Part shown: positions 32,625 to 48,658 of the stretch, one piece after another
Position numbering within the stretch: position 1 is the stretch's first letter
Layout of the letters: each line of letters opens with the position of its first letter
Source: Burkholderiales bacterium
GTDB lineage: Bacteria; Pseudomonadota; Gammaproteobacteria; Burkholderiales; SG8-39
Length of the DNA: 64,000 nt
NCBI GenBank assembly: GCA_035308765.1
Contig: DATGGA010000064.1
Coordinates: 39,310-103,309, forward strand
Direction: 5' to 3'
The notes under the pieces: model-generated
Seen by the model: only the letters and a program-made list of their open reading frames with translations
Database searches by the model: none
Told to the model about the DNA's origin: nothing
Position numbers and translations under genes: made by a program

Positions 32625-33332
32625 ATGCCCGCAACGGTACTCATCGTAGAAGACGAGCCGGCGATCCTCGAGCTGATCGCCGTCAACCTGGAACATGCCG
32701 GCTTCGAGACCTTGCGGGCGAAAAGCGGCGAGGAAGCCGTGCGCCTGCTCGGCGACGTCCTGCCCGACCTGGTGCTGCTGGACTGGATGCTGCCGGGGCA
32801 GTCGGGACTTGCACTGGCGCGGCGCCTGCGCGGCGACTCGCGCACCAGGGAAATGCCGCTGATATTTCTCACCGCGCGCGCCGACGAGCCCGACAAGCTC
32901 GCGGGCCTGGAGGCGGGCGCCGACGACTACATCACCAAGCCGTTTTCCACCAAGGAGCTGGTGGCGCGCATCCGCGCGGTGCTGCGCCGGAAAAAGCCCC
33001 AGCACGGCGAAATGCCGGTCGAGATCTCGGGACTGAGGCTCGACCCCGCTGCGCATCGCGTCACGGGCAACGGCCTGGTGTTGTCCTTCGGCCCGACCGA
33101 GTTCCGCCTGCTGCATTACTTGATGACGCACCCCAACCGCGTCTACTCGCGCACCCAGCTGCTGGACGAGGTCTGGGGCGACCACGTCTTCATCGAGGAA
33201 CGCACCGTGGATGTCCATATCCGCAGGCTGCGTCAGGGCCTCACGCCCAGCGGCCACGACGCGCTGATCGAGACCGTACGTGGCAGCGGCTATGCCTTGC
33301 GGGCCGAAGCGGCGGTCATGAGCCGCGGCTGA
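32625..33332 (+). CDS. phoB: phosphate regulon response regulator PhoB
   Basis: Receiver domain (VLIVEDE...DLVLLDWMLPG) plus an OmpR/PhoB winged-helix domain (RTVDVHIRRLR). ATG at 32625 follows agggagg. Confidence 0.9.
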   Translation: MPATVLIVEDEPAILELIAVNLEHAGFETLRAKSGEEAVRLLGDVLPDLVLLDWMLPGQSGLALARRLRGDSRTREMPLIFLTARADEPDKLAGLEAGADDYITKPFSTKELVARIRAVLRRKKPQHGEMPVEISGLRLDPAAHRVTGNGLVLSFGPTEFRLLHYLMTHPNRVYSRTQLLDEVWGDHVFIEERTVDVHIRRLRQGLTPSGHDALIETVRGSGYALRAEAAVMSRG

Positions 33333-36692: not shown

Positions 36693-38777
36693 ATGGTTAA
36701 GAAGAATCTTCAGCCGTCCCATTTTCTCAATCGGGAACTCGGCCTGCTCGAGTTCAACCGCCGCGTACTGGCGCAGGCGGCCGACGACTCGGTGCCGATT
36801 CTCGAGCGGCTGCGCTTCCTCACCATCGTGTCCTCCAATCTGGACGAGTTCTTCGAGATCCGGGTCGCCGGGCTGAAGGAGCAGATCAAGGCGGGCATCA
36901 AGGAGTCCGGCCCCGACGGCCGCAGTCCGGCTGAAGTCTACGAGCTGGTGTCGGCACAGGCGCGCGCGCTGGTCGGCGAGCAGTACCGGCTGCTGAACAG
37001 CGTGCTGTTGCCGGCGCTCGTGAAGCAGGGCGTGATCTTCCCGCGCCGCGAGGACTGGACCGAGGCGCAGCGCACCTGGATCCGCGACTACTTCATGCGC
37101 GAGCTGCTGCCGGTGCTTACGCCGATCGGCCTCGACCCGGCGCACCCGTTTCCGCGCGTGCTGAACAAGTCGCTCAACCTCGCCATCGAGCTGGAAGGCC
37201 GCGATTCCTTCGGCCGCAAGTCGCGCGACGCCATCGTGCAGGCGCCGCGCGCGCTGCCGCGCGTCATCCGCTTGCCGGCCGACGTCGCGGGCGCGGAGTA
37301 CGCGTTCGTGTTCCTGTCCTCGATCCTGCACGCGCACGTGGACGAGCTGTTCTCCGGCATGGAGGTCAAGGGCTGCCACCAGTTCCGAGTCACGCGAAAT
37401 TCGGACCTGTTCGTGGACGAGGAAGAAATCAAGAACATGCGCATCGCCATCCAGGGCGAACTGCTGCAGCGCCACTTCGGCGACGCGGTCCGGCTGGAAG
37501 TCGCCGACAGCTGCTCGCAGCAGACCGTGGATTTCCTGCTGCAGCAATTCGGCCTGTCGGAGTCCGACCTCTACCGCGTCGACGGCCCGGTTAACCTGTA
37601 CCGCCTGCGCGAGGTGACCGACCGCGTCGACCGGCCCGACCTGAAGTACCCGGTGTTCCAGCCGGCGCCGCCGCCGGCGCTGGTGGGCCACAAGGACATC
37701 TACGCAGTGCTGAAGAAGCAGGACGTGCTGCTGCACCATCCCTACGAATCCTTCACCCCGGTGATCGATTTCATCCGCACCTCGGTCACCGACCCGCGCG
37801 TGATCGCGATCAAGCAGACCGTCTACCGCACCGGCACCGACTCCGAGCTGATGGACATCCTCATCGAGGCGGCGCGCAAGGGCAAGGAAGTCACCGTCGT
37901 GGTGGAACTGATGGCGCGCTTCGACGAGGAGGCGAACATCAACTGGGCCTCGCGCCTGGAGGAAGCCGGCGCGCACGTCGTCTACGGCGTCGTCGGCCAC
38001 AAGACCCACGCCAAGATGGCGCTGGTGGTGCGGCGCGAGGACGGCCCGCAGGGCAGCGTCCTCAGGCGTTACGCGCACCTGGCCACCGGCAACTACCACC
38101 CGCGCACCGCGCGCCAGTACACCGATTTCGGGCTGCTCACCGCGAGGGAGGAAATCTGCTCGGACGTGAATGAAGTATTCAAGCAGCTGACGGGCCTCGG
38201 GCGCTCGAGCCGCATGAAGCACCTGTGGCTGTCGCCCTTCACGCTGCACAAGCGCGTGGTCGCGGCGGTGAGGAACGAGGTGCGCCTGGCCAAGGAAGGC
38301 AAGCCGGCGCGCATCATAGCGAAGATGAATGCGCTGCTGGAGCCCGACCTGATCGAGGAGCTGTATACGGCCTCGCAGGCGGGGGTGCAGATCGACCTCA
38401 TCGTGCGCGGCGTCTGCGCGCTGCGCCCGGGTGTCGCCGGGTTGTCGGAGAACATCCGCGTGCGCTCCGTGGTCGGGCGCTTCCTCGAGCACACGCGCAT
38501 CTGCTATTTCCAGAACGAAGGCGCCGAAGATGTGTATCTTTCCAGCGCCGACTGGATGGACCGCAATTTCTTCCGCCGCATCGAATTGGGTTTCCCGGTG
38601 CTCGATCCGGCTCTTAAGCAGCGCGTCATCAATGAGGGCCTGCGGGCTTACCTCGATGACACGAGCCAGGTCTGGACCATGACGTCGGATGGCGCCTATG
38701 AGGCGCCGGCGCCACGCCGCGGCAAGCCGCGCGTGGTGCAGGAAGAACTGCTGCGCTCGCTGGCCCACACGGCCTGA
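36693..38777 (+). CDS. ppk: polyphosphate kinase 1
   Basis: 694 aa with N-terminal NRELGLLEFNRRVL. Full-length similarity to the PPK1 pattern, including the phosphohistidine region and two PLD-like C-terminal domains. Confidence 0.95.
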   Translation: MVKKNLQPSHFLNRELGLLEFNRRVLAQAADDSVPILERLRFLTIVSSNLDEFFEIRVAGLKEQIKAGIKESGPDGRSPAEVYELVSAQARALVGEQYRLLNSVLLPALVKQGVIFPRREDWTEAQRTWIRDYFMRELLPVLTPIGLDPAHPFPRVLNKSLNLAIELEGRDSFGRKSRDAIVQAPRALPRVIRLPADVAGAEYAFVFLSSILHAHVDELFSGMEVKGCHQFRVTRNSDLFVDEEEIKNMRIAIQGELLQRHFGDAVRLEVADSCSQQTVDFLLQQFGLSESDLYRVDGPVNLYRLREVTDRVDRPDLKYPVFQPAPPPALVGHKDIYAVLKKQDVLLHHPYESFTPVIDFIRTSVTDPRVIAIKQTVYRTGTDSELMDILIEAARKGKEVTVVVELMARFDEEANINWASRLEEAGAHVVYGVVGHKTHAKMALVVRREDGPQGSVLRRYAHLATGNYHPRTARQYTDFGLLTAREEICSDVNEVFKQLTGLGRSSRMKHLWLSPFTLHKRVVAAVRNEVRLAKEGKPARIIAKMNALLEPDLIEELYTASQAGVQIDLIVRGVCALRPGVAGLSENIRVRSVVGRFLEHTRICYFQNEGAEDVYLSSADWMDRNFFRRIELGFPVLDPALKQRVINEGLRAYLDDTSQVWTMTSDGAYEAPAPRRGKPRVVQEELLRSLAHTA

Positions 38778-38842: not shown

Positions 38843-39208
38843 ATGGAAAGTCCCTACAAGGGCAAGACCGGATTGCGCCGGCTGCTGAACGCTGCCGGCT
38901 ATTCGTTCTCCGGGCTGGCAGCGGCGGCCCGCCACGAGGATGCCTTTCGCCAGGAGCTGATTCTCTCCGCGGTCATGGTGCCGCTTGGCCTCTGGCTGGG
39001 CCAGAGCGGCGTCGAGCGCGCCATGCTGGTGGGCAGCGTGCTGCTGGTGCTGATCGTCGAACTGCTCAATTCCGCCGTGGAGGCGACCGTGGACCGCGTG
39101 TCGCTCGACGACCACAGCCTGGCCAAGCGCGCCAAGGACATCGGCAGCGCCGCGGTGATGCTCGCGCTCGCCAACGTCGCAGTGATCTGGCTCCTGATCC
39201 TGGTTTAA
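38843..39208 (+). CDS. dgkA: diacylglycerol kinase
   Basis: 121 aa, three TM helices. Motifs GYSFSGL...E.AFRQE and VELLNSA.E. Its stop codon lies inside the first heptamer of the downstream Pho-box array. Confidence 0.85.
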   Translation: MESPYKGKTGLRRLLNAAGYSFSGLAAAARHEDAFRQELILSAVMVPLGLWLGQSGVERAMLVGSVLLVLIVELLNSAVEATVDRVSLDDHSLAKRAKDIGSAAVMLALANVAVIWLLILV

Positions 39209-39258
39209 CCGGGCTGTAACCGATCCGTCATCGAAGTTTCATGCGGGCAGGGCATCGT
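39203..39258 (+). promoter_or_regulatory. tandem Pho boxes (4 phased heptamers) plus -10 upstream of GT4 glycosyltransferase A
   Basis: GTTTAAC-cggg-CTGTAAC-cgat-CCGTCAT-cgaa-GTTTCAT (39203-39242, strict 11-bp register), 10 nt, then CATCGT (39253-39258). Confidence 0.6.
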
Positions 39259-39279
39259 CCTGTCCGCATGGAACAGCGA

Positions 39280-40446
39280 ATGCGGATCGCGATGGTGAGC
39301 GAGACCTACCCGCCCGAGGTGAACGGCGTCGCGCGCACGGTCGCCCTGATGGCGGAAGGATTGCACGCCCTCGGCCACGAAATACAGCTGGTGCGGCCGC
39401 GACAGGGGCCGGCGGAGCGTGCGCTCGACGAGCCGCGGTTCCGCGAGCTGCTGCGTCCGGGAATCCGCATTCCGCGCTACCCGCAGTTGCGCATGGGGCT
39501 GCCCTCCAGGGGTGCGCTGCTGCAGGCCTGGAAGAAGGCGCGGCCAGAGGTGGTGCACATCGCCACCGAGGGGCCACTCGGCTCATCGGCGCTGTCCGCG
39601 GCGCGCGCGCTGGCGATCCCGGTCGCGACTGATTTTCATACCAACTTTCACGCCTACAGCGGCCATTACGGTTTTCCGTGGCTCGAACGCGCGGTCGCGG
39701 CGTACCTGCGCCGCTTCCACAACCGGGCCGACTGCACCATGGTGCCGACGGACGAGATGGCGCAGGACCTGGCGCGGCTCGGCTTCGAAAAGCTGCGCGT
39801 GGTAGGGCGTGGCGTGAATTCCGCGGTGTTTTCTCCCGCCAAGCGCCGCGCTGAACTGCGCGCCGAATGGGGGGCTGACGACGACACGCCGGTGGCGCTG
39901 TGCGTCAGCCGCTTCGCGCCGGAAAAGAATTTCCCACTGGTGCTGGACGCCTACCGCGCGATGCGCGCCGTGCGACCCGAAACGCGCCTGGTGCTGGTCG
40001 GCGACGGCCCGATGACCGAAGAACTGAAACGCGAGCACCTGGGCTGCGTGGTCGCCGGGCGCCTGGTCAACGGCGAGTTGTCGGCCCATTACGCCTCGGC
40101 CGACATTTTTCTTTTTCCCAGCACTAGCGAGACCTTCGGCAATGTCACGATGGAGGCGATGGCGAGCGGCCTCGCAGTCGTGGCCTACGACTACGCGGCG
40201 GCCCGCCAGCACATCGTGCACGGCCGCTCGGGGCTGCTGGCGCGGGTCGACGACCGCATCAGCTTCATCGAGCACGCAGCGGCGCTGGCGCGCGATCTGC
40301 CCCGTGCCCGGACGCTCGGACGCCAGGCGCGCGCCACCGCCGAACCGCTGGGCTGGGACAGGGTAGTGGCCGATTTCGCGTCAGTGCTGGCCGATACTAT
40401 GACTGCGCCGGGATCCGCAATGCGAGAGAGCCATGCCGCGGCTTGA
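39280..40446 (+). CDS. GT4-family (GT-B fold) glycosyltransferase A, Agt/DAG-glycosyltransferase-like
   Basis: N-terminal MRIAMVSETYPPEVNGVA, C-terminal EX7E motif (ETFGNVTMEAMASG). The ATG at 39241 is rejected because it lies inside the Pho box; the ATG at 39268 is also possible. Paralogue of 45142..46407. Confidence 0.8.
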   Translation: MRIAMVSETYPPEVNGVARTVALMAEGLHALGHEIQLVRPRQGPAERALDEPRFRELLRPGIRIPRYPQLRMGLPSRGALLQAWKKARPEVVHIATEGPLGSSALSAARALAIPVATDFHTNFHAYSGHYGFPWLERAVAAYLRRFHNRADCTMVPTDEMAQDLARLGFEKLRVVGRGVNSAVFSPAKRRAELRAEWGADDDTPVALCVSRFAPEKNFPLVLDAYRAMRAVRPETRLVLVGDGPMTEELKREHLGCVVAGRLVNGELSAHYASADIFLFPSTSETFGNVTMEAMASGLAVVAYDYAAARQHIVHGRSGLLARVDDRISFIEHAAALARDLPRARTLGRQARATAEPLGWDRVVADFASVLADTMTAPGSAMRESHAAA

Positions 40447-40966
40447 CGTCAGCCTGGAAATGATCCAGCGCTGGGACGAGCGCACTTGCGCGAAATTCAA
40501 CCGCGCGATCCGGGTGCGCGCGCTGCTGCAACTGTTCCGCGCCGTGAGCTGGGTGGGGAACGGCATCTTCTGGTACGCGCTGATGCTTGGCCTGCTGCTC
40601 ACCTATGGCGCGGACGCGGCGCTGCCGGTCCTCCATATGGTCGGCGTCGGCCTGCTCTGCACGCTCCTGTACCGCCTGCTGAAGAAAGGAACTCTGCGCC
40701 CGCGGCCGTTCGAAGTGCACGCGCACATTGCGGCCGGCACGGTGCCGCTCGACCGGTTCAGTTTCCCATCCGGGCATACGCTGCATGCGGCGGCGTTCAC
40801 GCTCATCGCGACGGCGTATTTTCCGGAGCTCGCGCTGCTGCTGGTCCCGGTCACGCTTGCAGTAGCCGCTTCGCGCGTCGTTCTCGGCCTGCACTACCCG
40901 AGCGATGTGCTGGCGGGCGCCGCGATCGGCGCCGCGGTCGCATTTAGTTCTCTCGGCCTCGCTTAG
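40433..40966 (+). CDS. PAP2-family lipid phosphatase
   Basis: All three acid-phosphatase motifs are present: KKGTLRPRP, PSGH, SRVVLGLHYPSD. Polytopic. Start overlaps the GT4-A stop by 14 nt (same operon). Confidence 0.8.
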   Translation: MPRLDVSLEMIQRWDERTCAKFNRAIRVRALLQLFRAVSWVGNGIFWYALMLGLLLTYGADAALPVLHMVGVGLLCTLLYRLLKKGTLRPRPFEVHAHIAAGTVPLDRFSFPSGHTLHAAAFTLIATAYFPELALLLVPVTLAVAASRVVLGLHYPSDVLAGAAIGAAVAFSSLGLA

Positions 40967-41784
40967 GCATCTCGCGCACGGCGTTCCGGCACCGGCGCGT
41001 GAATGAGCGCGATGCTGAGCCACACCGCGACGCTGAAATACAGCGACATCCACGCCACTTCGCTATGCCAGTCCTGCCAGCGGCGGGCAACGATCCAGCG
41101 GTCCGAGACGTCCAGCAGGCCCTGGGCGACGCTCAGGTAGTGGCGCCCGCTCGCCTCGTCTGCCAGCCAGCGCGCCCAGTACATCGGCACGTCGACCAGG
41201 AACATGAAGGCGACGTAGGCGATGCCCGCCGCGCACCAGGCGGCCAGCAGCGGCCGCAGCGAGGCGTTGCAGCGCGGCCAGATCCAGAGCAGGCTCGTGA
41301 CCAGCAGCCCTGCGCTCAGGGCCCAAATCGGTTCTTCGAGCACGTGCCCGAGGTTCGACGTGGTGAGCACCGAGTACCACGAGCAGATCTCCGCGACCGC
41401 GATGAGCGGGACCACCACCACCGAGGTGACCCTGCCGGCGCCGCTGCCCGTGGCGCGCGAAATTTCCCGCAGCAGCAGCGCCCACTGCGCGGCGAAGCAC
41501 AATTCGGCGAAAGTCGCCACGGAGCGTCCGACGATGACGCTGGAGAGCCAGGTGTCGAACAGGCAGAAGCGCTGTATGTCATAGACCGGCAGCGCCGAGC
41601 GGTAAGCGCAGCCGAGCACGTAGCCCGCCGACAGGAGAAGCTGCGCGCGGCGCAGGTAGTAGGCTTCAGGCGACAGGGTTGCCTGGCGCCGCTCGAGCGC
41701 GGCGGCCGACAGCGCCCATGCAAGGATGTTGAACCCCGCGACGGAGCAGAGGAAAAACCACCACCAGAAAACGTCTGCTGACAT
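40963..41784 (-). CDS. polytopic membrane protein, unknown function
   Basis: 273 aa, about 7-8 hydrophobic segments, Trp-rich. No family recognised by eye. Lies 49 nt downstream of the PSD-like gene on the same strand. Confidence 0.5.
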   Translation of the reverse strand: MSADVFWWWFFLCSVAGFNILAWALSAAALERRQATLSPEAYYLRRAQLLLSAGYVLGCAYRSALPVYDIQRFCLFDTWLSSVIVGRSVATFAELCFAAQWALLLREISRATGSGAGRVTSVVVVPLIAVAEICSWYSVLTTSNLGHVLEEPIWALSAGLLVTSLLWIWPRCNASLRPLLAAWCAAGIAYVAFMFLVDVPMYWARWLADEASGRHYLSVAQGLLDVSDRWIVARRWQDWHSEVAWMSLYFSVAVWLSIALIHAPVPERRARDA

Positions 41785-41833
41785 GAACCTGCAATGTTCG
41801 CATGCTAGGCCCGTGCCGGCTGTTACGGTTTTC

Positions 41834-42676
41834 TTAAGGTTCGGGCAGGCGCATCAGCGGCTCGCCCATGCGGATGAGCGAACCTGCCGTCACATTTCCG
41901 CAAAGTGCGAAGCCGCGCGGCGCGAACACGAGAATCGTCGAGCCATGCTGGAACCAGCCCATTTCCTCGCCCTTGGCGAAGCGCGCATCGCAATGGATCA
42001 CGTTCGGACCGCGATAGCGCAGGTGCAGCAGCACGTCGAGAAAATGCAGGCGGATGCTCGCGACGAGAACCGCGGCCACCGGGACCAGCAGGATTTCGTG
42101 TCCGCCCGCCTCGAGCCTGGTGCGCAACAGGGCGCGCTCGTTCTTGCAGAACAGTTTCTCGACGCGCCGCAGCGCGATCGGGTTCACGTTCCAGGTATCG
42201 CCCGAGAAGTAGGTTACCTGCCCGATCCGGCAGTCGTGCGGCGCGTGGAAGCGGTGGTACATGCTCGAAGTGATCCGCAGCGTGGCGTAGGTCGCGTCGC
42301 GGAAATCGTCCGCGAGCGTGGCGCTGCCGACCAGGTCCAGTATCGTGTAGGGGAAGCCCTTCGCCTGGATCAACTGGCCGTCCTCGACCCGCCCGCAGGC
42401 GCCGACGATCGCGTCGCAGGGACTGGCCAGCAGCGCCGGATCGGGATCCACCGGCCGCGCGCCGTGCTTCAGCTCGCGGATGAAGCAGTCGTGCAGGCTG
42501 CGAAAGCTGGCCTGCTTCGCTTCATCGAGGCGCAGGTCCGCGAACAGCCGCCAGGCCGCGAGCGACAGATCGCGCACCAGCGGCAGTTCGAGCTGGCTGA
42601 ACCAACCCATGAAGCGCGTAAACGCGTGCCGGGGAATGCGGTTGGTGATGAGGAAATTGAGGTCTTCCGTCACCAT
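41834..42676 (-). CDS. phosphatidylserine decarboxylase-family (pyruvoyl-dependent) proenzyme
   Basis: 280 aa with the self-cleavage motif GST in WFQHGSTILVF. N-terminal LITNRIPR. YHRFHAP motif. Confidence 0.8.
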   Translation of the reverse strand: MVTEDLNFLITNRIPRHAFTRFMGWFSQLELPLVRDLSLAAWRLFADLRLDEAKQASFRSLHDCFIRELKHGARPVDPDPALLASPCDAIVGACGRVEDGQLIQAKGFPYTILDLVGSATLADDFRDATYATLRITSSMYHRFHAPHDCRIGQVTYFSGDTWNVNPIALRRVEKLFCKNERALLRTRLEAGGHEILLVPVAAVLVASIRLHFLDVLLHLRYRGPNVIHCDARFAKGEEMGWFQHGSTILVFAPRGFALCGNVTAGSLIRMGEPLMRLPEP

Positions 42677-42700
42677 GCTGTAACCCGGGGGCGGTAAACA
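42667..42700 (+). promoter_or_regulatory. Pho box plus -10 upstream of class-III aminotransferase (overlaps PSD-like start codon)
   Basis: CCGTCAC-catg-CTGTAAC (42667-42684), 10 nt, then TAAACA (42695-42700). The spacer 'catg' contains the minus-strand ATG of the PSD-like gene. Confidence 0.5.
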
Positions 42701-42708
42701 GGCCGCAA

Positions 42709-44358
42709 ATGAACGAGACCTATCTTCTCTACGGCATCGGCGCCGCCGCGGCCATGCTGACCATCCCGGCGCTCAAGACGCGCCTGGAGCTGTCGAAGGC
42801 CAAACATCCTTCGCTTACGGGCCATTCCCGCATGGCGCGCCGGGTCGCCGGACTGATTCCCTATTACGGCTACGACGAGCAGCGGGTTTTCCGCTCCGAC
42901 GGCGCACCCGACGAGATCGAGGCGCGGCGCCGGGCGGGGTTCGCCCGACTCGCCGAGCTCTACCGCCGGCGCTTTGCGAAGACGGCGGCGCTCACCAATG
43001 AGGCGCGCAAGGGAATGTCGGACCTGCAGTTCACCAGCGCCTACCGCGTGCCGTTCCAGTACAGCAGGTATGTGCGCAGGCACCTCGGGTTCGGGGCATT
43101 CGTGGAATCGTCCAGCGGCGTGACGGTCACGGACCTCGATGGCAACTGCTTCTACGATCTCACAGGGTCCTACGGGGTCAACGTGTTCGGCTACGACTTT
43201 TACAAGTCGTGCATGGCCGAGGGCAGCGCACGCGCCGCGATGCTGGGACCCGTGCTTGGGGCCTATCATCCCGCCGTCGCGTACAACGTGCGCCGGTTGC
43301 GCGAGATCTCCGGCCTGGACGAGGTGTCCTTTCACATGTCCGGCACCGAGGCGGTGATGCAGGCGGTGCGCCTCGCGCGGTATCACACACGCCGTTCCCA
43401 CCTGGTGCGCTTCTGCGGCGCCTACCATGGCTGGTGGGAAGACGTGCAGCCCGGCATCGGTAACCCGGTGCCGCCGCACAATACCTACACGCTGAAGGAC
43501 ATGGACGAGGACTCTTTGCGCGTGCTGCGTCGGCGCCGCGACATTGCCTGCGTGCTGGTGAACCCGCTGCAGGCCCTGCATCCGAACATGAATGCGCCCG
43601 GCGACGGCTCGCTGGTGGACAGCACGCGCCACGCGCACTTCGACCGGGCCGGCTATGCAAAGTGGCTGAAGCGGCTGCGCGAAGTCTGCACCGAGCGCGG
43701 CGTCGTGCTGATCTTCGACGAGGTGTTCGTCGGCTTCCGTATCGCACCCGGCGGCGCGCAGGAATATTTCGGCGTGCGCGCCGACCTGGTCACCTACGGC
43801 AAGACGCTGGGCGGCGGATTTCCGGTTGGCGCGGTCTGCGGGCGCGCCGGTCTCATGAAGCGCTTCCGAGAAGACCGGCCGGCCGACATCTGCTTCGCGC
43901 GCGGCACGTTCAATTCGCATCCCTACGTGATGGGCGCGATGCAGGTGTTCCTCGAACGTCTGGAAAGCGCGGATCTGCGCGAGCCGTATCGCGGTCTCGA
44001 CGAGTGCTGGGATCGCCGCGCCGGGCGGCTCAATGAACGGCTCAGGGAAGCGGGGTTGCCCGTGCAGGTAGCGAACCTGTCGTCGATCTGGACCGTCTGC
44101 TATACGCAGCCGTCGCGCTACAACTGGATGCTGCAGTACTACATGCGCACCGAAGGGCTGGCGCTCAGCTGGGTCGGCACCGGTCGGCTGATTTTCAGCC
44201 TCGACTATGCGGAGGCCGATTTCGAAGCGGTCGCGGAACGGTTCATTGCCGCCGCCACGGCCATGCAGAGGGATGGCTGGTGGTGGTCGGACCCCGCGCT
44301 GACCGACAAGTCGATCAAGCGCGGGATACTCAGGGAAATGCTCTCGCAACGGTTCTGA
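42709..44358 (+). CDS. class-III PLP aminotransferase (glutamate-1-semialdehyde aminomutase-like) with ~90-100 aa N-terminal extension
   Basis: 549 aa. Motifs SGTEAVMQAVRLAR, DEVFVGFR, and the PLP-lysine region TYGKTLGGGFPVGA. The N-terminal ~100 residues have no HemL counterpart. An alternative ATG is at 42754. Confidence 0.8.
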   Translation: MNETYLLYGIGAAAAMLTIPALKTRLELSKAKHPSLTGHSRMARRVAGLIPYYGYDEQRVFRSDGAPDEIEARRRAGFARLAELYRRRFAKTAALTNEARKGMSDLQFTSAYRVPFQYSRYVRRHLGFGAFVESSSGVTVTDLDGNCFYDLTGSYGVNVFGYDFYKSCMAEGSARAAMLGPVLGAYHPAVAYNVRRLREISGLDEVSFHMSGTEAVMQAVRLARYHTRRSHLVRFCGAYHGWWEDVQPGIGNPVPPHNTYTLKDMDEDSLRVLRRRRDIACVLVNPLQALHPNMNAPGDGSLVDSTRHAHFDRAGYAKWLKRLREVCTERGVVLIFDEVFVGFRIAPGGAQEYFGVRADLVTYGKTLGGGFPVGAVCGRAGLMKRFREDRPADICFARGTFNSHPYVMGAMQVFLERLESADLREPYRGLDECWDRRAGRLNERLREAGLPVQVANLSSIWTVCYTQPSRYNWMLQYYMRTEGLALSWVGTGRLIFSLDYAEADFEAVAERFIAAATAMQRDGWWWSDPALTDKSIKRGILREMLSQRF

Positions 44359-44359
44359 A

Positions 44360-44968
44360 TCAGCCGTGCTGCCGGTGCGGCATCGGGTCGATCAGCTCGC
44401 CGCGCAAGAGATACATCGGCGCCTTGTGATAGAGCTTCAGGTCGTGGAACGGGTCGGTCAGGATCTTTATCATCCATACCAGCCCCGTCTTTACGTCCCG
44501 GATGAAGAACAGGTGCACCGTGCGGAACAGCAGGCCGCCTACACCCAGCGCGAGCCAGATCATGGCCAAGTGATGCACGTAGTCGTAGGTCGTGACCGGT
44601 AGCTCGAACAGGCCGAACAGCGTGGGATCGGCAAGCAGCGGCAGCGGGGCCAGCGCCCAGGCCACGTACAGCAGTATCTTGCGGCGCAAGTTGTATCCGA
44701 TCTTGATTTCCTCCTTGTACTCGTGCGTCGCCTGATTGACGTGGTCGTAACCCTTCGGCTCGAAGAAAAAGTGTCCCGACTGGCGCGCGGTCATTGCGAT
44801 CAGCCAGCCGATCAATGCAGCGGCGACCGGATAAACAAACAGCATCGCGTAGGCGCACAGGAAGCTCGCCGCGCTGACGAAATGCAGCGACTGGTTGATC
44901 CGGCTGTGGTGATAGTAGCGGTGATCGTCCCAGCGCTGGATTTGGAGGGTGCGGAGAATTTCTTTCAT
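44360..44968 (-). CDS. polytopic membrane protein, possible DUF962/Mpo1-like (HxxxxNxxxH)
   Basis: 202 aa from the ATG at 44968, preceded by gaggag. About 4-5 TM segments. The motif YHHSRINQSLHF resembles the Mpo1-like family signature; this assignment is tentative. Confidence 0.5.
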   Translation of the reverse strand: MKEILRTLQIQRWDDHRYYHHSRINQSLHFVSAASFLCAYAMLFVYPVAAALIGWLIAMTARQSGHFFFEPKGYDHVNQATHEYKEEIKIGYNLRRKILLYVAWALAPLPLLADPTLFGLFELPVTTYDYVHHLAMIWLALGVGGLLFRTVHLFFIRDVKTGLVWMIKILTDPFHDLKLYHKAPMYLLRGELIDPMPHRQHG

Positions 44969-45012
44969 CTTGTCTCCTCGGCGGTTAAGTCGGAAACCTG
45001 ACAACGGGCCCG

Positions 45013-45068
45013 AGGATACGGGGGAATTGCGACAGTTCCGTAAAACGGAAATGACAAATCGACGACAG
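45013..45068 (-). promoter_or_regulatory. tandem Pho boxes (4 phased heptamers) plus -10 upstream of membrane protein 44360..44968
   Basis: Minus strand reads CTGTCGT-cgat-TTGTCAT-ttcc-GTTTTAC-ggaa-CTGTCGC (45068-45029), 10 nt, then TATCCT (45018-45013). Confidence 0.6.
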
Positions 45069-45079
45069 GGGGGCCAGTG

Positions 45080-45135
45080 CCGTCGCAATTCATTCACGCG
45101 GCGGTCATCGGGGCGTCGCGCGGCGGATCCATCAT
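45080..45135 (+). promoter_or_regulatory. tandem Pho-box-like array (4 phased heptamers) plus -10 upstream of GT4 glycosyltransferase B
   Basis: CCGTCGC-aatt-CATTCAC-gcgg-CGGTCAT-cggg-GCGTCGC (45080-45119), 10 nt, then CATCAT (45130-45135). Same layout as the GT4-A promoter, but the heptamers are weaker. Confidence 0.45.
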
Positions 45136-45141
45136 CGCGCC

Positions 45142-46407
45142 ATGCGAGCCGGGATGCGCGACGACCAGGCACCGATCCAGATCGAGCAGCTGGGCGGCGT
45201 TCGCCGATCGCTGCGCGTCGCGGTGGTGACCGAAACCTACCCGCCGGAAATCAACGGCGTTGCGCTGACCGCCGCGCGCTTCGTTGAAGGCCTGCGCCAG
45301 CGCGGTCACCAGATTCAACTCATCCGCCCGCGGCAAGACAGTACCGACCACGCGGATGCCGACGACCGTTTCCAGGAAGTGCTCATGCGGGGCGTCGCGA
45401 TTCCGCGCTATCCGAATCTGAGGATGGGCCTCCCGGCCAAGCGCGCACTCGAGCAGCTCTGGACTTACTGCCGCCCCGACGTCGTGCACATAGTCACCGA
45501 GGGCCCTCTGGGCTGGTCGGCCCAGCGGGCCGCCCTCAAGCTGCGCATCCCCGCAGTCTCGGATTTCCGCACCAATTTCCACGCCTACAGCCGGCACTAC
45601 GGCATCGGCTGGCTCGGGAAGCCGATCCTCGCCTACCTGCGCAAATTCCACAACCGTACCTTGTGCACCATGGTGCCAACGGAATCCATGCGCGCCGACC
45701 TCGCTGCGCTCGGCTTCTATCGCCTGCGCGTAGTGGCGCGCGGAGTGGACACGGCGCTTTTCGACCCGGCGCGACGCAGCACGGCGCTACGCGCCAGCTG
45801 GGGTGCGGCGCCGGAAGACCCCGTGCTGCTGCATGTAGGCCGCCTCGCGCCGGAAAAGAATCTCGATGCGCTGCTTGCCGCGTTCGAGGCGGCTCGCGAG
45901 CGTGCGCCGCGCGCCAGGCTGGTGCTGGTCGGCGACGGCCCGTCCCGGGGCGAAATGCAGGCGCGCTGCCCGGAAGCGATCCTCGCCGGGACGCGGCGCG
46001 GCGAGGAACTTGCCGCGCACTACGCTTCGGGGGACATGTTCCTGTTTCCGAGCCTGACGGAGACCTACGGCAACGTGACCGTGGAGGCGCTGGCGAGCGG
46101 CCTGGCCGTGATCGCCTACGACTACGCCGCCGCAGCGGCGCATATCCGTCACGGGCATAACGGCCTGCTGGCGGATTTCGACAACACGGCGGAATTCGCT
46201 GCGCTCGCGGCCGGGCTGGTCACAAATCTGTCCCAGATTCGGGCGCTGGCCGTCAAAGCGCGGCAGGAAGTGCTGGCGCACGACTGGGGGCGCGTGGTGC
46301 AGCAGCTCGAAGGCGTTCTGGAGGTCGCGGCCGGTACGGGCAGCGGACGGTTCTACGGCAGTTCCGGTGGCCGCCGCGCGCGCAGTCCCATGCCCCAGAG
46401 CACGTAG
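45142..46407 (+). CDS. GT4-family glycosyltransferase B (paralogue of 39280..40446)
   Basis: Collinear with GT4-A over its whole length (VVTETYPPEINGVA, PRYPNLRMGLP, TDFRTNFHAYS, LAPEKN, EX7E ETYGNVTVEALASG). Start is ATG 45142 or 45154. Confidence 0.8.
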   Translation: MRAGMRDDQAPIQIEQLGGVRRSLRVAVVTETYPPEINGVALTAARFVEGLRQRGHQIQLIRPRQDSTDHADADDRFQEVLMRGVAIPRYPNLRMGLPAKRALEQLWTYCRPDVVHIVTEGPLGWSAQRAALKLRIPAVSDFRTNFHAYSRHYGIGWLGKPILAYLRKFHNRTLCTMVPTESMRADLAALGFYRLRVVARGVDTALFDPARRSTALRASWGAAPEDPVLLHVGRLAPEKNLDALLAAFEAARERAPRARLVLVGDGPSRGEMQARCPEAILAGTRRGEELAAHYASGDMFLFPSLTETYGNVTVEALASGLAVIAYDYAAAAAHIRHGHNGLLADFDNTAEFAALAAGLVTNLSQIRALAVKARQEVLAHDWGRVVQQLEGVLEVAAGTGSGRFYGSSGGRRARSPMPQST

Positions 46408-47114
46408 CCCGAGACGGCATAGGCCAGGCACAGCAGGAACAGTACGACCGGCGGGCGAAGCGAGACCACCGCAAGGCCGGCGACGAACGCCAGCATCACC
46501 CAGAAAGGCACCGCCCGCTTGAGGTTGAATTCCTTGAAGCTGTAGAACGGCACGTTGGTCACCATGGTGATGCCTGCGTACATCGTGAACACCCAGGCGA
46601 TCATGCTCAGCCACAATTCGCGGTCGATGCCGAAGTCGTCGAATACCCACACCAGGCCCGCCAGCAGCGCAGCGGCCGCCGGACTCGGGATGCCCTGGAA
46701 GTAGCGTCTATCGACGACATCCATGTTTACGTTGAAACGCGCCAGCCGCAGCGCGGCGCCGGCGCAGTATACGAAGGCGGCGATCCAGCCGAGCTTGCCC
46801 ATGCCTTTCAGCGCCCAGACGTACATGACGAGCGCAGGCGCGGCGCCGAATGAAACCATGTCCGACAGGCTGTCGTACTGTGCGCCAAACTCGCTTTGCG
46901 TATGCGTGAGCCGCGCGATGCGGCCGTCCAGCCCGTCGAGAACCATGGCGACGAAGATGGCGATCGCCGCAAGTTCGAAATGTTCGTTCATCGCCTGCAC
47001 GATGGCGTAGAAGCCGGAGAACAGCGAAGCGGTGGTGAAAAGGTTCGGCAGCAGATAGATGCTGCGCCGGCGGAACAGGCTCAGGCTGCGGCCGCCCTCC
47101 TCGAAGTCTCCCAT
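46353..47114 (-). CDS. pssA: CDP-alcohol phosphatidyltransferase, PssA-like (CDP-diacylglycerol--serine O-phosphatidyltransferase type II)
   Basis: Perfect D-G-x2-A-R-x8-G-x3-D-x3-D motif (DGLDGRIARLTHTQSEFGAQYDSLSD). N-terminal YLLPNLFT. Polytopic. Confidence 0.8.
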   Translation of the reverse strand: MGDFEEGGRSLSLFRRRSIYLLPNLFTTASLFSGFYAIVQAMNEHFELAAIAIFVAMVLDGLDGRIARLTHTQSEFGAQYDSLSDMVSFGAAPALVMYVWALKGMGKLGWIAAFVYCAGAALRLARFNVNMDVVDRRYFQGIPSPAAAALLAGLVWVFDDFGIDRELWLSMIAWVFTMYAGITMVTNVPFYSFKEFNLKRAVPFWVMLAFVAGLAVVSLRPPVVLFLLCLAYAVSGYVLWGMGLRARRPPELP

Positions 47115-47148: not shown

Positions 47149-47183
47149 ACCCTACAGGGAGAGTTGCGACAATCTGATGACAG
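47149..47183 (-). promoter_or_regulatory. Pho box plus -10 upstream of pssA-like gene
   Basis: Minus strand reads CTGTCAT-caga-TTGTCGC (47183-47166), 11 nt, then TAGGGT (47154-47149). Confidence 0.55.
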
Positions 47184-47264: not shown

Positions 47265-48083
47265 GTGCCGCACGTCCGCGCCATCTTCCTCTCGGACATC
47301 CACCTCGGCACGCCCGCCTGCCAGGCCGGGCGGCTGCTCGAATTCCTCAAGGCGCACGAGTCGGAGTACCTGTTCCTGGTCGGCGACATCATCGATTTCT
47401 GGGCGATGCAGCGCCGCGGCGTGTACTGGTCTGCCGAGCAGAACACCGTGGTGCAGAAGATCCTCAAGCGCGCGCGCCACGACGTCAAGGTGATCTTCGT
47501 GCCCGGCAACCACGACGAAGCCGCGCGCGAGCACACCGGCACCTCGTTCGGCAACATCCGCGTCGAGCGCGACTATGTGCACCTGGCCGCCGACGGCAGG
47601 CGCTACCTGCTGATCCATGGCGACGAGTTCGACCAGGTCACGCGCTATCACCGGTGGCTGGCGATCCTTGGCGACCACGCATACTCGATGGTCGTGCGCC
47701 TGAACATGTGGCTGTCCTGGCTGCGACGCACGCTCGGTATTCCCGGCTACTGGTCGCTCTCGGGCTACGTGAAGAAGAAGGTGAAGAGGGCGGTCAGCTT
47801 CGTCTTCGACTTCGAGGATTCGGTTCTGCGCCACGCGAGGGAGCGCGGCGTGGACGGGGTCATCTGCGGCCACATCCATTCCGCGACGATCCGCGACCAC
47901 GGCGGCATCACCTACATCAATTGCGGCGACTGGGTGGACAGCTGCACCGCGATCGTCGAAGATGAGAACGGCTCCATGGCGCTCGTGCACTGGGGGGGCG
48001 AAGACGAAATAGCGGAGCGCCTTCCTCCTTCGGCGGCGAGCTCCGCTCTGAATGAAGCCAGGGAAGACGCGGTCTTATGGTGA
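47265..48083 (+). CDS. LpxH-like calcineurin-type metallophosphoesterase, candidate PlcP-type phospholipase C
   Basis: GTG start after gagg. Metallophosphoesterase motifs SDIHLG, GDIIDFW, PGNHDE, IHGDEFD, GHIH. Its Pho-box promoter and neighbouring DAG-related genes favour a lipid-remodelling role over housekeeping LpxH. Confidence 0.75.
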   Translation: MPHVRAIFLSDIHLGTPACQAGRLLEFLKAHESEYLFLVGDIIDFWAMQRRGVYWSAEQNTVVQKILKRARHDVKVIFVPGNHDEAAREHTGTSFGNIRVERDYVHLAADGRRYLLIHGDEFDQVTRYHRWLAILGDHAYSMVVRLNMWLSWLRRTLGIPGYWSLSGYVKKKVKRAVSFVFDFEDSVLRHARERGVDGVICGHIHSATIRDHGGITYINCGDWVDSCTAIVEDENGSMALVHWGGEDEIAERLPPSAASSALNEAREDAVLW

Positions 48084-48433
48084 CGCTCGATATGTTCCGC
48101 AATGCCAAAGACGCGAGGCCCTACCTGGCCGGCGAGGCGATATTCCGCGCCGGCGACCGGGGCGACAACATGTACGTGGTGGTAGAGGGTGAAGTGAGCG
48201 TTTCGGCCAACGGCAGGGAACTTGAGCTGCTCGGACCCGGCGGCGTATTCGGCGAGATTGCGCTGATCGACAACGGACCGAGGTCGGCTGACGCGATCGC
48301 GGTAACGGATTGCCGCGTGGTCCCCATAGACGAGAACTGGTTCAAGTTCCTCGTGCAGCAAACGCCGTATTTCTCGCTCCAGATCATGCGCGTGATGGCC
48401 GACCGGCTGCGGCGCAGCATGCCCGCGCCATAA
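48077..48433 (+). CDS. stand-alone cyclic nucleotide-binding domain protein
   Basis: 118 aa with the CAP effector domain pattern (IFRAGDRGDNMYVVVEGEV...GGVFGEIALID..PRSADA). ATG overlaps the upstream stop (ATGGTGA). Confidence 0.65.
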   Translation: MVTLDMFRNAKDARPYLAGEAIFRAGDRGDNMYVVVEGEVSVSANGRELELLGPGGVFGEIALIDNGPRSADAIAVTDCRVVPIDENWFKFLVQQTPYFSLQIMRVMADRLRRSMPAP

Positions 48434-48624: not shown

Positions 48625-48658
48625 CTGTCATGGAGCGGTAATCCATGGTGGGTAGCGT
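48625..48658 (+). promoter_or_regulatory. Pho box plus -10 upstream of EAL-CBS-GGDEF gene
   Basis: CTGTCAT-ggag-CGGTAAT (48625-48642), 10 nt, then TAGCGT (48653-48658). 40 nt upstream of the GTG at 48698. Confidence 0.5.

What the first reader, a model, noticed from the sequence alone, without database searches (positions are those of the whole stretch)
41834..44358. Head-to-head pyruvoyl decarboxylase and N-terminally extended class-III aminotransferase, with a Pho box lying across the decarboxylase start codon
Only 32 nt separate the two start codons. The Pho box CCGTCAC-catg-CTGTAAC (42667-42684) has the minus-strand ATG of the PSD-like gene in its 4-nt spacer. PhoB binding that activates the aminotransferase would therefore sit on the first codons of the PSD-like gene, allowing reciprocal control.

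A PSD-family enzyme needs a substrate carrying an amino acid. A GSA-aminomutase-like transaminase acts on omega-amino or aldehyde groups. Pairing these two in a lipid locus is not a described pathway. The first ~100 residues of the aminotransferase have no counterpart in HemL-type enzymes and begin with a hydrophobic segment, which may be a membrane anchor.
Basis: partly seen in the sequence, partly recalled or inferred. Interest (0 to 1): 0.6.

Follow-up and report, generated by a model that had tools for sequence, protein, structure and literature searches.

The report
Phosphate-starvation lipid decarboxylase–aminotransferase gene pair
A phosphatidylserine-decarboxylase-like gene and a membrane-anchored aminotransferase gene sit head to head around a conserved phosphate-starvation (Pho) promoter, as part of a widespread, apparently undescribed gene set that probably puts an amine onto phosphorus-free membrane lipids.

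Summary
A PSD-family gene (41834-42676, -) and a 549-aa class-III aminotransferase gene (42709-44358, +) start 32 nt apart. CCGTCAC-catg-CTGTAAC (42667-42684) carries the PSD start codon in its spacer.

The box is not chance. In 58 of 74 related divergent loci from beta-, alpha- and gammaproteobacteria, an aminotransferase-facing Pho-box dimer lies in this spacer. A TAnA -10 follows exactly 10 nt downstream, and in 48 of the 58 the PSD ATG lies inside the box.

Neither refutation condition is met: the genome has its own hemL and its own psd-pssA pair.

Across 151 genomes of the order, the two genes occur in the same 12 genomes and are adjacent in all 12. They travel with an Mpo1/DUF962-like membrane protein and a GT4 glycosyltransferase. 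Elsewhere the aminotransferase is fused to the Mpo1-like protein in PlcP-GT4-[fusion]-PEMT operons, and protist homologues exist.

Best reading: a PhoB-induced, uncharacterised amination/decarboxylation branch of PlcP-Agt lipid remodelling. Reciprocal control is not supported, because one clade has memB-AT-PSD as a single Pho-box operon.

This scan found the same module before in other genomes. I found no paper describing it.

The parts
41834..42676 (-). PSD-family pyruvoyl decarboxylase gene (280 aa), E. coli-type long form, a paralogue of the housekeeping psd
   Evidence: PF02666 E 2.7e-52 and TIGR00163 158 bits, above the 111.75 cut-off. D88, H141, R134 and G245-S246-T247 are invariant in 23 family members. 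It aligns to E. coli PSD 7cnw. It has no BLAST similarity to the short housekeeping PSD on C99.
42667..42684 (+). Pho box CCGTCAC-catg-CTGTAAC facing the aminotransferase gene; the PSD start codon is the complement of 42674-42676
   Evidence: The box is conserved in 58 of 74 related spacers against 3.4% of background. A PSD ATG lies inside the box in 48 of 58 loci.
42695..42700 (+). -10-like hexamer TAAACA, 10 nt after the box and 8 nt before the ATG, which predicts a leaderless or near-leaderless aminotransferase mRNA
   Evidence: TA at +11/+12 and A at +14 after the box are conserved in about 90%, 90% and 70% of 55 unique sites.
42709..44358 (+). Membrane-anchored class-III (GSA-aminomutase-like) aminotransferase gene (549 aa)
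   Evidence: PF00202, and HemL models far below cut-off. K365 and D337 are invariant. The model has pLDDT 87.7. The best solved fold is the MycA aminotransferase domain 6kfm, TM 0.83.
42709..43083 (+). Family-specific N-terminal extension: hydrophobic helix (residues 3-31, core 4-22) followed by a helical domain (residues 40-125, motif YYGYDExxxFRSDGAPDE)
   Evidence: The motif is conserved out to protist homologues.
44360..44968 (-). memB: 202-aa histidine-rich polytopic protein, a distant Mpo1/DUF962-like putative Fe oxygenase and a core partner
   Evidence: Invariant H16, H20, H29, H66, D14, D15, E70. PF06127 E 8e-4, below cut-off. The H..N..H and GHFFFE motifs align to a genuine Mpo1-like protein of this genome. 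Atlas fold matches named DUF962/Mpo1-like at TM 0.9. Fused to the aminotransferase in P0131 and P0205.
45142..46407 (+). GT4b: lipid-type GT4 glycosyltransferase, a core partner
   Evidence: Pfam GT4/GT1. The best NCBIfam hits are lipid glycosyltransferases, below cut-off. Present next to memB in 54 of 80 loci.
45029..45119 (.). Back-to-back Pho heptamer arrays between memB and GT4b
   Evidence: Read directly: minus strand CTGTCGT-cgat-TTGTCAT-ttcc-GTTTTAC-ggaa-CTGTCGC; plus strand CCGTCGC-aatt-CATTCAC-gcgg-CGGTCAT.
40963..41784 (-). memA: 273-aa polytopic membrane protein of no known family, 49 nt downstream of the PSD gene on the same strand
   Evidence: GC3 0.88. No Pfam or NCBIfam hit. Only unnamed Atlas clusters. 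Present in 12 of 80 loci.
46353..47114 (-). PssA paralogue (CDP-diacylglycerol-serine O-phosphatidyltransferase)
   Evidence: TIGR00473 112.6 bits, above the 107 cut-off. 82% identical to the housekeeping PssA on C99. Found only here and in L008 and L009.
47265..48083 (+). Metallophosphoesterase (PlcP-like, LpxH-related)
   Evidence: PF00149/PF12850. LpxH models score below cut-off. Present in 20 of 80 loci.
39241..40446 (+). GT4a, a paralogous GT4 glycosyltransferase behind Pho box CTGTAAC-cgat-CCGTCAT-cgaa-GTTTCAT (39214-39242); the true start is probably ATG 39280

Best explanation
The two genes are co-functional members of a conserved, PhoB-controlled membrane-lipid head-group module. The module extends the known PlcP-Agt phosphate-starvation lipid remodelling.

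**Shown**
- The aminotransferase promoter is a canonical Pho promoter: two heptamers, then 10 nt, then a TAnA -10. It is conserved across classes, and its first heptamer or spacer contains the PSD start codon.
- The aminotransferase is a catalytically intact class-III PLP enzyme. It carries an N-terminal hydrophobic anchor and a family-specific helical domain.
- The PSD-like protein keeps every residue needed for self-cleavage and pyruvoyl catalysis.
- Within the order, both genes occur in exactly the same genomes and are adjacent in all of them, beside an Mpo1/DUF962-like histidine-rich membrane protein and a GT4 lipid glycosyltransferase.
- In other phyla the aminotransferase is fused to the Mpo1-like protein. 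There it lies in operons ordered metallophosphoesterase - GT4 - fusion - lipid N-methyltransferase (PEMT), next to phosphate transport genes.

**Inferred pathway**
1. Under phosphate limitation, PlcP-type enzymes release diacylglycerol from phospholipids.
2. GT4 makes a glycosyl-diacylglycerol.
3. The Mpo1-like oxygenase oxidises a head-group position to a carbonyl.
4. The anchored aminotransferase converts the carbonyl to an amine.
5. In Proteobacteria, the PSD-like enzyme removes a carboxyl group next to that amine, just as PSD turns a serine head group into an ethanolamine head group.
6. In alphaproteobacteria and the fusion-type lineages, a PmtA/PEMT-like enzyme N-methylates the amine.

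The product would be a phosphorus-free zwitterionic or cationic lipid that stands in for PE or PC.

**Expression of the PSD gene.** Both genes are most likely expressed together under phosphate stress. How the PSD gene is transcribed in the divergent layout is not known.
For: **Pho promoter.**. phoB lies on the same contig.

**Enzyme integrity.**

**Anchor.** The acidic-hydrophobic-basic pattern is conserved in 80 loci. Protist homologues have multi-TM N-termini.

**Module conservation.**
- The order PSD(-)|AT(+)|memB(-)|GT4(+) holds in nearly all of 80 loci from beta-, alpha- and gammaproteobacteria.
- AT and PSD-like are found in the same 12 of 151 genomes of the order and are adjacent in all 12.

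**Fusions and operons.**
- AT + memB fusions: P0131 (cluster of 78 members) and P0205. Many further proteins of 730-770 aa fit the same form.
- Operon Metallophos-GT4-[AT-memB]-PEMT-PHO4.
- pstSCAB ... GT4-[AT-memB] ... phn C-P lyase genes.
- A GT2 match in the N-terminal part of the Euglena homologue.
- A PmtA-like methyltransferase beside memB in 13 alphaproteobacterial loci.

**Co-expression.** A Pho box precedes the co-directional memB-AT-PSD operon in L037.

**Precedent.** Class-III aminotransferases that aminate sugar aldehydes (NeoN, GenB) are among the solved relatives.
Against: - No lipid product, enzyme activity or transcript was observed; the pathway is inferred from families and gene context alone.
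- The closest characterised relatives act on acyl chains, not sugars: the MycA AMT on beta-ketoacyl-ACP, and Mpo1 on 2-hydroxy fatty acids.
- The PSD-like enzyme needs an alpha-amino acid. Ordinary glucuronopyranosyl-DAG cannot supply one, so its substrate is unexplained.
- The PSD-like gene was not in the two fusion-type operons examined, so it is not part of the universal core.
- It retains an Arg at the phosphate-ligand position (R134 = E. coli Y137; Arg occurs in 15% of PSDs, PMC7952604). Plain phosphatidylserine therefore remains a possible substrate.
- No promoter for the PSD gene was identified.
Confidence: 0.6

Rival explanations
1. Reciprocal switch. PhoB~P bound to the box activates the aminotransferase promoter. 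At the same time it blocks transcription or translation initiation of the PSD-like gene. The two enzymes are then made under opposite phosphate regimes.
For: The PSD start codon lies inside the box in 48 of 58 loci. Any PSD promoter must therefore lie under or beyond the AT promoter. No PSD-facing Pho box is conserved: only 8 of 74 loci reach the score, close to background. No sigma-70 consensus promoter was found.
Against: The two genes co-occur strictly and are adjacent, as expected of partners acting together. One Burkholderiaceae clade (L030, L031, L037, L040) has memB-AT-PSD as one co-directional operon behind a Pho box, with only 20 nt between AT and PSD. That enforces co-expression.
Confidence: 0.15
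2. The PSD-like protein is simply a second, starvation-specific phosphatidylserine decarboxylase. It works with the duplicated PssA to keep PE synthesis going. The aminotransferase is a neighbour with a separate job.
For: It scores above the TIGR00163 cut-off. All catalytic residues are intact, and an Arg allowed in true PSDs sits at the phosphate-ligand position. A PssA paralogue 82% identical to the housekeeping enzyme lies 3.7 kb away behind its own Pho box.
Against: The PssA paralogue occurs only here and in two close relatives. PSD-like and AT, in contrast, are inseparable across three classes. Making more phospholipid under phosphate starvation runs against the rest of the locus. A housekeeping psd-pssA pair already exists.
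Confidence: 0.12
3. The module edits acyl chains rather than head groups. The Mpo1-like oxygenase and the MycA-AMT-like aminotransferase convert a 2-hydroxy or 3-keto acyl group into an amino acyl group. The PSD-like enzyme decarboxylates a resulting 2-amino fatty acid.
For: The best solved match, by sequence and by fold, is the MycA aminotransferase domain, which aminates beta-ketoacyl-ACP. Mpo1 is a 2-hydroxy fatty acid dioxygenase, according to the Pfam PF06127 description.
Against: The aminotransferase is steadily linked to glycosyltransferases: GT4 in bacteria and a GT2-like domain fused in Euglena. It is also linked to PEMT/PmtA-like head-group methyltransferases. No ACP, ketosynthase or acyl-activating gene is in the module.
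Confidence: 0.1

Closest known systems
PlcP-Agt phosphate-starvation lipid remodelling (Sinorhizobium PlcP, Agrobacterium Agt; also Pseudomonas aeruginosa and Burkholderia; PMC13700237 and references there)
   Same: Both are controlled by Pho boxes. Both pair a metallophosphoesterase with GT4 lipid glycosyltransferases in a phosphate-stress neighbourhood (phoB, ppk, ppx, dgkA, PAP2). The purpose is to replace phospholipids with phosphorus-free glycolipids.
   Different: The described systems stop at MGDG and GADG. Here an anchored aminotransferase, an Mpo1-like oxygenase and a PSD-family decarboxylase are added (plus a PmtA/PEMT-like methyltransferase in some lineages). No product of these has been described.
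Phosphatidylserine decarboxylase (E. coli Psd, PDB 7cnw/6l06)
   Same: Family HMMs score above cut-off. The N-terminal membrane helices, D88, H141 and the G-S-T self-cleavage site are all kept.
   Different: It is a second copy beside a housekeeping psd of the short type. It is locked to an aminotransferase gene and lies under a Pho promoter. Its substrate is unknown. PSD-family members with non-lipid substrates do exist (PsiD, a fungal arginine decarboxylase; abstracts listed).
Glutamate-1-semialdehyde 2,1-aminomutase (HemL)
   Same: Class-III PLP fold, PLP lysine and aspartate. HemL is the nearest named bacterial family by HMM.
   Different: It scores a third of the HemL cut-off. It has about 100 extra N-terminal residues with a membrane anchor, and about 30 extra C-terminal residues. 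A genuine hemL is encoded elsewhere in the genome.
MycA aminotransferase domain of mycosubtilin synthase (PDB 6kfm)
   Same: It is the best solved relative by sequence (E 2.6e-44) and by fold (TM 0.83 normalised to the target), and it handles a lipidic carbonyl substrate.
   Different: Identity is only 27%. MycA's domain is embedded in a PKS/NRPS and acts on an ACP-bound acyl chain. The enzyme here is free-standing, membrane-anchored and linked to glycosyltransferases.
Yeast Mpo1 / DUF962 (PF06127)
   Same: memB shares the H-x4-N-x3-H and G-H-F-F-F-E motifs and a polytopic helical fold. Atlas neighbours are named DUF962/Mpo1-like.
   Different: It falls below the Pfam cut-off (19.9 against 24 bits). 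It forms a distinct ~200-aa subfamily that is fused or adjacent to the aminotransferase.

Membership tests
Phosphatidylserine decarboxylase family (PF02666 / TIGR00163) | Profile score above the curated cut-off | tested here: met
   PF02666 177.7 bits (cut-off 22) and TIGR00163 158.1 bits (cut-off 111.75).
Phosphatidylserine decarboxylase family (PF02666 / TIGR00163) | G-S-T self-cleavage site giving the pyruvoyl group, plus the Asp/His of the processing triad | tested here: met
   G245-S246-T247, D88 and H141 are invariant in 23 members. They align to E. coli D90 and H144 (PMC7952604).
Phosphatidylserine decarboxylase family (PF02666 / TIGR00163) | Decarboxylates phosphatidylserine | not testable with these tools
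   The phosphate-ligand position is Arg134 (E. coli Y137), which is allowed in true PSDs. This does not discriminate between substrates.
HemL (glutamate-1-semialdehyde 2,1-aminomutase, TIGR00713) | Profile score above the curated cut-off | tested here: not met
   173.6 bits against a cut-off of 527.3. The genome's true hemL on C72 scores 617 bits.
HemL (glutamate-1-semialdehyde 2,1-aminomutase, TIGR00713) | Sole hemL homologue, as required for the C5 haem pathway | tested here: not met
   A separate full-scoring hemL is present.
Class-III aminotransferases (PF00202) | Profile match, PLP-binding lysine and the pyridine-nitrogen aspartate | tested here: met
   PF00202 111 bits. K365 and D337 are invariant in 35 sequences that include protist homologues. 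The fold matches class-III enzymes.
PhoB-dependent (Pho box) promoter | Two 7-bp direct repeats like CTGTCAT, 4-bp spacer, oriented towards the gene | tested here: met
   CCGTCAC-catg-CTGTAAC matches 10 of 14 positions. The site is conserved in 58 of 74 spacers against 3.4% of background.
PhoB-dependent (Pho box) promoter | Box placed 10 bp upstream of a -10 element, in place of a -35 | tested here: met
   TAAACA starts 10 nt after the box. TA at +11/+12 is present in about 90% of 55 unique sites.
PhoB-dependent (Pho box) promoter | PhoB binds and phosphate limitation induces | not testable with these tools
   phoB is present at about window 32628-33299.
Mpo1-like / DUF962 (PF06127), for the partner memB | Profile score above the curated cut-off | tested here: not met
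   19.9 bits and 22 bits against a cut-off of 24. Motif and fold resemblance only.

The most novel reading that the evidence does not exclude
The module makes an undescribed class of phosphorus-free amino lipid. A glycosyl-diacylglycerol head group is oxidised by the Mpo1-like enzyme and transaminated by the anchored aminotransferase. It is then either N-methylated, giving a betaine-type glycolipid, or decarboxylated by a PSD-family enzyme. That enzyme would be the first PSD shown to act on a lipid head group that is not a phospholipid.

One chemically coherent route runs through a uronic acid with a free alpha-hydroxyl: alpha-hydroxy acid, then alpha-keto acid, then alpha-amino acid, then amine.

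Homologues of the aminotransferase in euglenids, chlorarachniophytes, labyrinthulomycetes and a choanoflagellate would extend this lipid chemistry to protists.
Probability: 0.3. Interest if true: 0.85.

Novelty: new variant of a known kind. Interest (0 to 1): 0.66.

Why it matters
Replacing phospholipids with phosphorus-free lipids is a major adaptation of soil, freshwater and marine microbes. It also alters antibiotic resistance and virulence in pathogens. The known genes (PlcP, Agt, BtaAB, OlsBA, Sqd) do not account for every lipid seen in lipidomes.

This gene set has at least 597 matches among single-species genomes, a fused form in several other phyla, and homologues in protists. It has clear Pho control and three enzymes whose chemistry points to an amine-bearing head group. 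It therefore gives a directly testable candidate pathway for a new membrane lipid, and possibly a new substrate class for PSD-family enzymes.

A start codon built into a Pho box, conserved across classes, is also a tidy model for studying overlapping divergent promoters.

Tried and rejected
- **A PSD promoter.**
  - The sigma-70 scan of 40900-45300 found none.
  - PSD-facing Pho dimers reach the score in only 8 of 74 loci, close to background.
  - The complement of heptamer 2 (TTGACA) looks like a -35 element. It lies only 4-8 nt from the start codon, so it cannot serve the annotated ORF.
- **memB against single Mpo1-like proteins.** hhalign gave low probabilities (0.3% and 6.5%). Only the motifs align, so membership is left open.
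- **Phosphate-ligand residues of the PSD-like enzyme.** R134 and N163 are compatible with a true PSD, so they do not show a non-phospholipid substrate.
- **Betaine lipids DGCC/DGTA.** I considered that the module might make these. The aminotransferase's eukaryotic homologues also occur in non-algal heterotrophs (a choanoflagellate, labyrinthulomycetes), and no paper links these lipids to such enzymes. The idea stays pure speculation.
- **Pfam on extra regions.** The extra regions of long homologues gave nothing, apart from a GT2 match in Euglena.
- **Literature.** Nine searches found no description of the module.
- **Complex prediction.** Not used: no binding claim depends on it.
Full report
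**What is there**

The window is 65% GC and comes from a 3.26-Mb, 104-contig, about 95%-complete genome. Close homologues of the aminotransferase come mostly from Burkholderiales and other Betaproteobacteria.

By third-position GC content the real genes around the finding are, in order:

| Gene | Coordinates | Strand |
|---|---|---|
| ppx | 35055-36566 | - |
| ppk | 36693-38777 | + |
| dgkA | 38843-39208 | + |
| GT4a | 39241-40446 | + |
| PAP2 | 40433-40966 | + |
| memA (unknown membrane protein) | 40963-41784 | - |
| PSD-like | 41834-42676 | - |
| aminotransferase (AT) | 42709-44358 | + |
| memB (202 aa, histidine-rich, membrane) | 44360-44968 | - |
| GT4b | 45142-46407 | + |
| PssA paralogue | 46353-47114 | - |
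| metallophosphoesterase | 47265-48083 | + |
| cNMP-binding protein | 48077-48433 | + |
| EAL-GGDEF protein | 48698-50572 | + |

phoB lies about 9 kb upstream on the same contig.

**Checking the observation**

- The two start codons are 32 nt apart (42676 and 42709).
- The PSD-like product passes PF02666 and TIGR00163.
- The second product is a class-III aminotransferase. HemL is its best named match, but at a third of the required score, and the alignment starts only at residue 122-130.
- CCGTCAC-catg-CTGTAAC occupies 42667-42684. The complement of 42674-42676 is the PSD ATG.
- A degenerate pattern built from the site occurs only twice in 64 kb, against 0.02 expected. The other hit is the Pho box in front of GT4a.

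That pattern is post hoc, so I tested conservation instead.

**The Pho promoter is conserved, and so is its overlap with the PSD start**

The search for related loci returned 597 matching stretches in single-species genomes, and I kept 80 loci. In 74 of them PSD and AT are divergent.

- The best AT-facing match to CTGTCAT-N4-CTGTCAT in the spacer reaches 10 or more of 14 positions in 58 loci. Only 3.4% of background stretches of the same length from the same loci do so.
- The PSD-facing strand reaches that score in only 8 loci.
- The 55 unique sites give the consensus nTGTCAT-n4-nTGTCAA. After exactly 10 nt comes T and then A in about 90% of sites (TAnA). These -10 columns were not used to pick the sites, so they are an independent confirmation of the canonical Pho-promoter geometry.
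- In 48 of the 58 loci an in-frame PSD ATG lies inside the 18-bp box. In 42 of them it is the CAT that ends heptamer 1. In this window and two other loci, L008 among them, it is the first three bases of the spacer.
- In this window the -10 (TAAACA, 42695-42700) ends 8 nt before the AT start codon. The mRNA should therefore be leaderless or nearly so. Elsewhere the median distance from the box to the start codon is 43 nt.

**The refutation conditions are not met**

- A genuine hemL scoring 617 bits (cut-off 527.3) lies on contig C72.
- A housekeeping psd (218 aa, short type) overlaps a pssA on C99.
- The PSD-like protein has no BLAST similarity to that short psd. The window's PssA, in contrast, is an 82%-identical recent copy of the housekeeping one.

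**The two proteins**

*Aminotransferase.*
- The PLP lysine K365 and the aspartate D337 are invariant in 35 sequences that reach as far as protists.
- The AlphaFold model has mean pLDDT 87.7. It shows a long N-terminal helix (residues 3-31), a confident helical domain (residues 40-125), and then the class-III fold.
- The best solved relative, by sequence and by fold, is the aminotransferase domain of mycosubtilin synthase (6kfm; E 2.6e-44; TM 0.83 normalised to the target). GSA aminomutases, beta-transaminases and sugar C-6' aminotransferases follow.
- Residues 4-22 are moderately hydrophobic (Kyte-Doolittle 1.5).
- Across the related loci the sequence of this stretch varies, but the pattern is kept: M-[NDE]-[ED]-T, about 17 hydrophobic residues, then [KR]-x-[KR]-R-L-E-L-S-x-A-K-H. 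That fits a signal-anchor with the catalytic domain in the cytoplasm.

*PSD-like.* D88, H141, R134 and G245-S246-T247 are invariant in the family. They correspond to E. coli D90, H144, Y137 and the cleavage site (PMC7952604). It should be an active pyruvoyl enzyme. Its substrate cannot be read from these residues.

**The pair is part of a larger conserved module**

- In the 80 loci the order PSD(-)|AT(+)|memB(-)|GT4(+) recurs in beta-, alpha- and gammaproteobacteria, and in one bin labelled Polyangia.
- Clustering all neighbouring ORFs gave these counts among the 80 loci:

| Gene | Loci |
|---|---|
| AT | 77 |
| memB | 67 |
| PSD-like | 62 |
| GT4 | 54 |
| metallophosphoesterase | 20 |
| MFS transporter | 17 |
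| PmtA-like methyltransferase (alphaproteobacteria, next to memB) | 13 |
| memA | 12 |

- In 151 genomes sampled across the order, AT is present in 12. PSD-like is present in exactly those 12 and is adjacent in all of them. Neither gene was found in the other 139, including a genome of the same genus.

**memB**

- Its histidines and acidic residues are invariant.
- It matches Pfam Mpo1-like weakly, below the cut-off.
- It shares the H..N..H and GHFFFE motifs with a true Mpo1-like protein of this genome.
- Its model (pLDDT 83.8) superposes at TM 0.9 on Atlas clusters auto-named DUF962/Mpo1-like.

**Fusions and other layouts**

An exhaustive profile search found natural AT-memB fusions. P0131 (754 aa) stands for a 78-member cluster that includes Methylomirabilota, and P0205 (873 aa) is another. 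Many more proteins of 730-770 aa come from bins labelled Tectimicrobiota and Binatia.

- One such gene sits in an operon ordered metallophosphoesterase - GT4 - [AT-memB] - PEMT - PHO4 transporter.
- Another sits between pstSCAB and the phn C-P lyase genes, again directly after a GT4 gene.
- No PSD-like gene was in these two contexts. PSD-like therefore looks like a proteobacterial addition to an AT + Mpo1-like + GT core.

Eukaryotic homologues occur in Euglena, Bigelowiella, Hondaea, Aplanochytrium, Rhizochromulina and the choanoflagellate Didymoeca. They keep the N-domain motif behind multi-TM regions. The N-terminal part of the Euglena protein matches GT2.

**Regulation: reciprocal or joint?**

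I could find neither a PSD-facing Pho box nor a sigma-70 promoter.

However, four loci of one Burkholderiaceae clade carry memB-AT-PSD co-directionally. In L037 a Pho box (CGGTCAC-catc-CTGTCAC) precedes memB, AT follows memB closely, and PSD starts 20 nt after AT. There the three genes must be co-induced. Together with the strict co-occurrence, this favours joint expression. The mechanism in the divergent layout remains unknown.

In this window AT and memB also converge with only 1 nt between their stop codons and no terminator. Antisense read-through is therefore likely on both strands.

**What it most likely does**

All the context is phosphate-stress lipid remodelling of the PlcP-Agt kind (PMC13700237). 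The added enzymes suggest these steps on a glycosyl-diacylglycerol head group:
1. oxidation by the Mpo1-like protein;
2. transamination by the anchored aminotransferase;
3. then either decarboxylation by the PSD-like enzyme or N-methylation by a PmtA/PEMT-like enzyme.

Every step after the family assignments is inference. The exact substrate of the PSD-like enzyme is the weakest point, because it needs an alpha-amino acid.

**Literature and earlier scan notes**

Nine full-text searches found no description of this gene set.

Earlier notes of this scan show that the same module was flagged and followed up in several other genomes, with similar conclusions. I read the sequence-based notes only after my own context analysis. 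The Mpo1-like motif and the leaderless-mRNA idea came from notes on this window, and I tested both here.

Noticed in passing
window 44358-44360: The aminotransferase and memB genes converge with a single base between their stop codons, and no terminator-like hairpin is present. Related loci usually leave 50-100 nt here. Transcripts from each gene should run antisense into the other.
   Followed up: partly
window 46353-47114 and G000:C99 (L002 702-1484): The locus holds a PssA paralogue 82% identical to the housekeeping PssA, behind its own Pho box (CTGTCAT-caga-TTGTCGC, minus strand, about 47166-47183). Only this genome and two close relatives (L008, L009) have it. A phospholipid synthase induced by phosphate starvation is paradoxical.
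   Followed up: partly
ESM Atlas cluster, row 4: A cluster of 72 memB-like (Mpo1-like) proteins superposes on the memB model at TM 0.90. More than half of its members are viral (Uroviricota), so phages may carry this gene as an auxiliary metabolic gene.
   Followed up: no
P0138, P0304, P0320, P0324 (protist homologues): Euglena and Bigelowiella encode 1190-1255-aa proteins. A large N-terminal region (GT2-like in Euglena) and several transmembrane helices precede the aminotransferase. Labyrinthulomycete, dictyochophyte and choanoflagellate versions are about 650-680 aa.
   Followed up: partly
window 38843-39208: A diacylglycerol kinase gene (dgkA, PF01219 E 5e-36) lies between ppk and the Pho box of GT4a. 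It is easy to miss in the ORF list because longer overlapping ORFs mask it.
   Followed up: yes
window about 32628-33299 (G000:C64:71937-72608) and G000:C89:23739-24410: Two PhoB-type response regulators score above the TIGR02154 cut-off (333 and 330 bits). One is in this window, about 9 kb upstream of the finding.
   Followed up: no
window 48625-48642: CTGTCATGGAGCGGTAAT is a one-mismatch Pho-box-like site on the plus strand. It lies about 55 nt upstream of the EAL-GGDEF gene (48698).
   Followed up: no
L009 2511-3296: In the close relative L009 an OlsB-like ornithine N-acyltransferase gene (NF052554, 174 bits, below cut-off) sits between ppk and GT4a, roughly where this window has dgkA.
   Followed up: no
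G061:C98:31633-33252: The aminotransferase homologue of one genome in the order has an in-frame TAG. It may be a pseudogene or a sequencing error.
   Followed up: no
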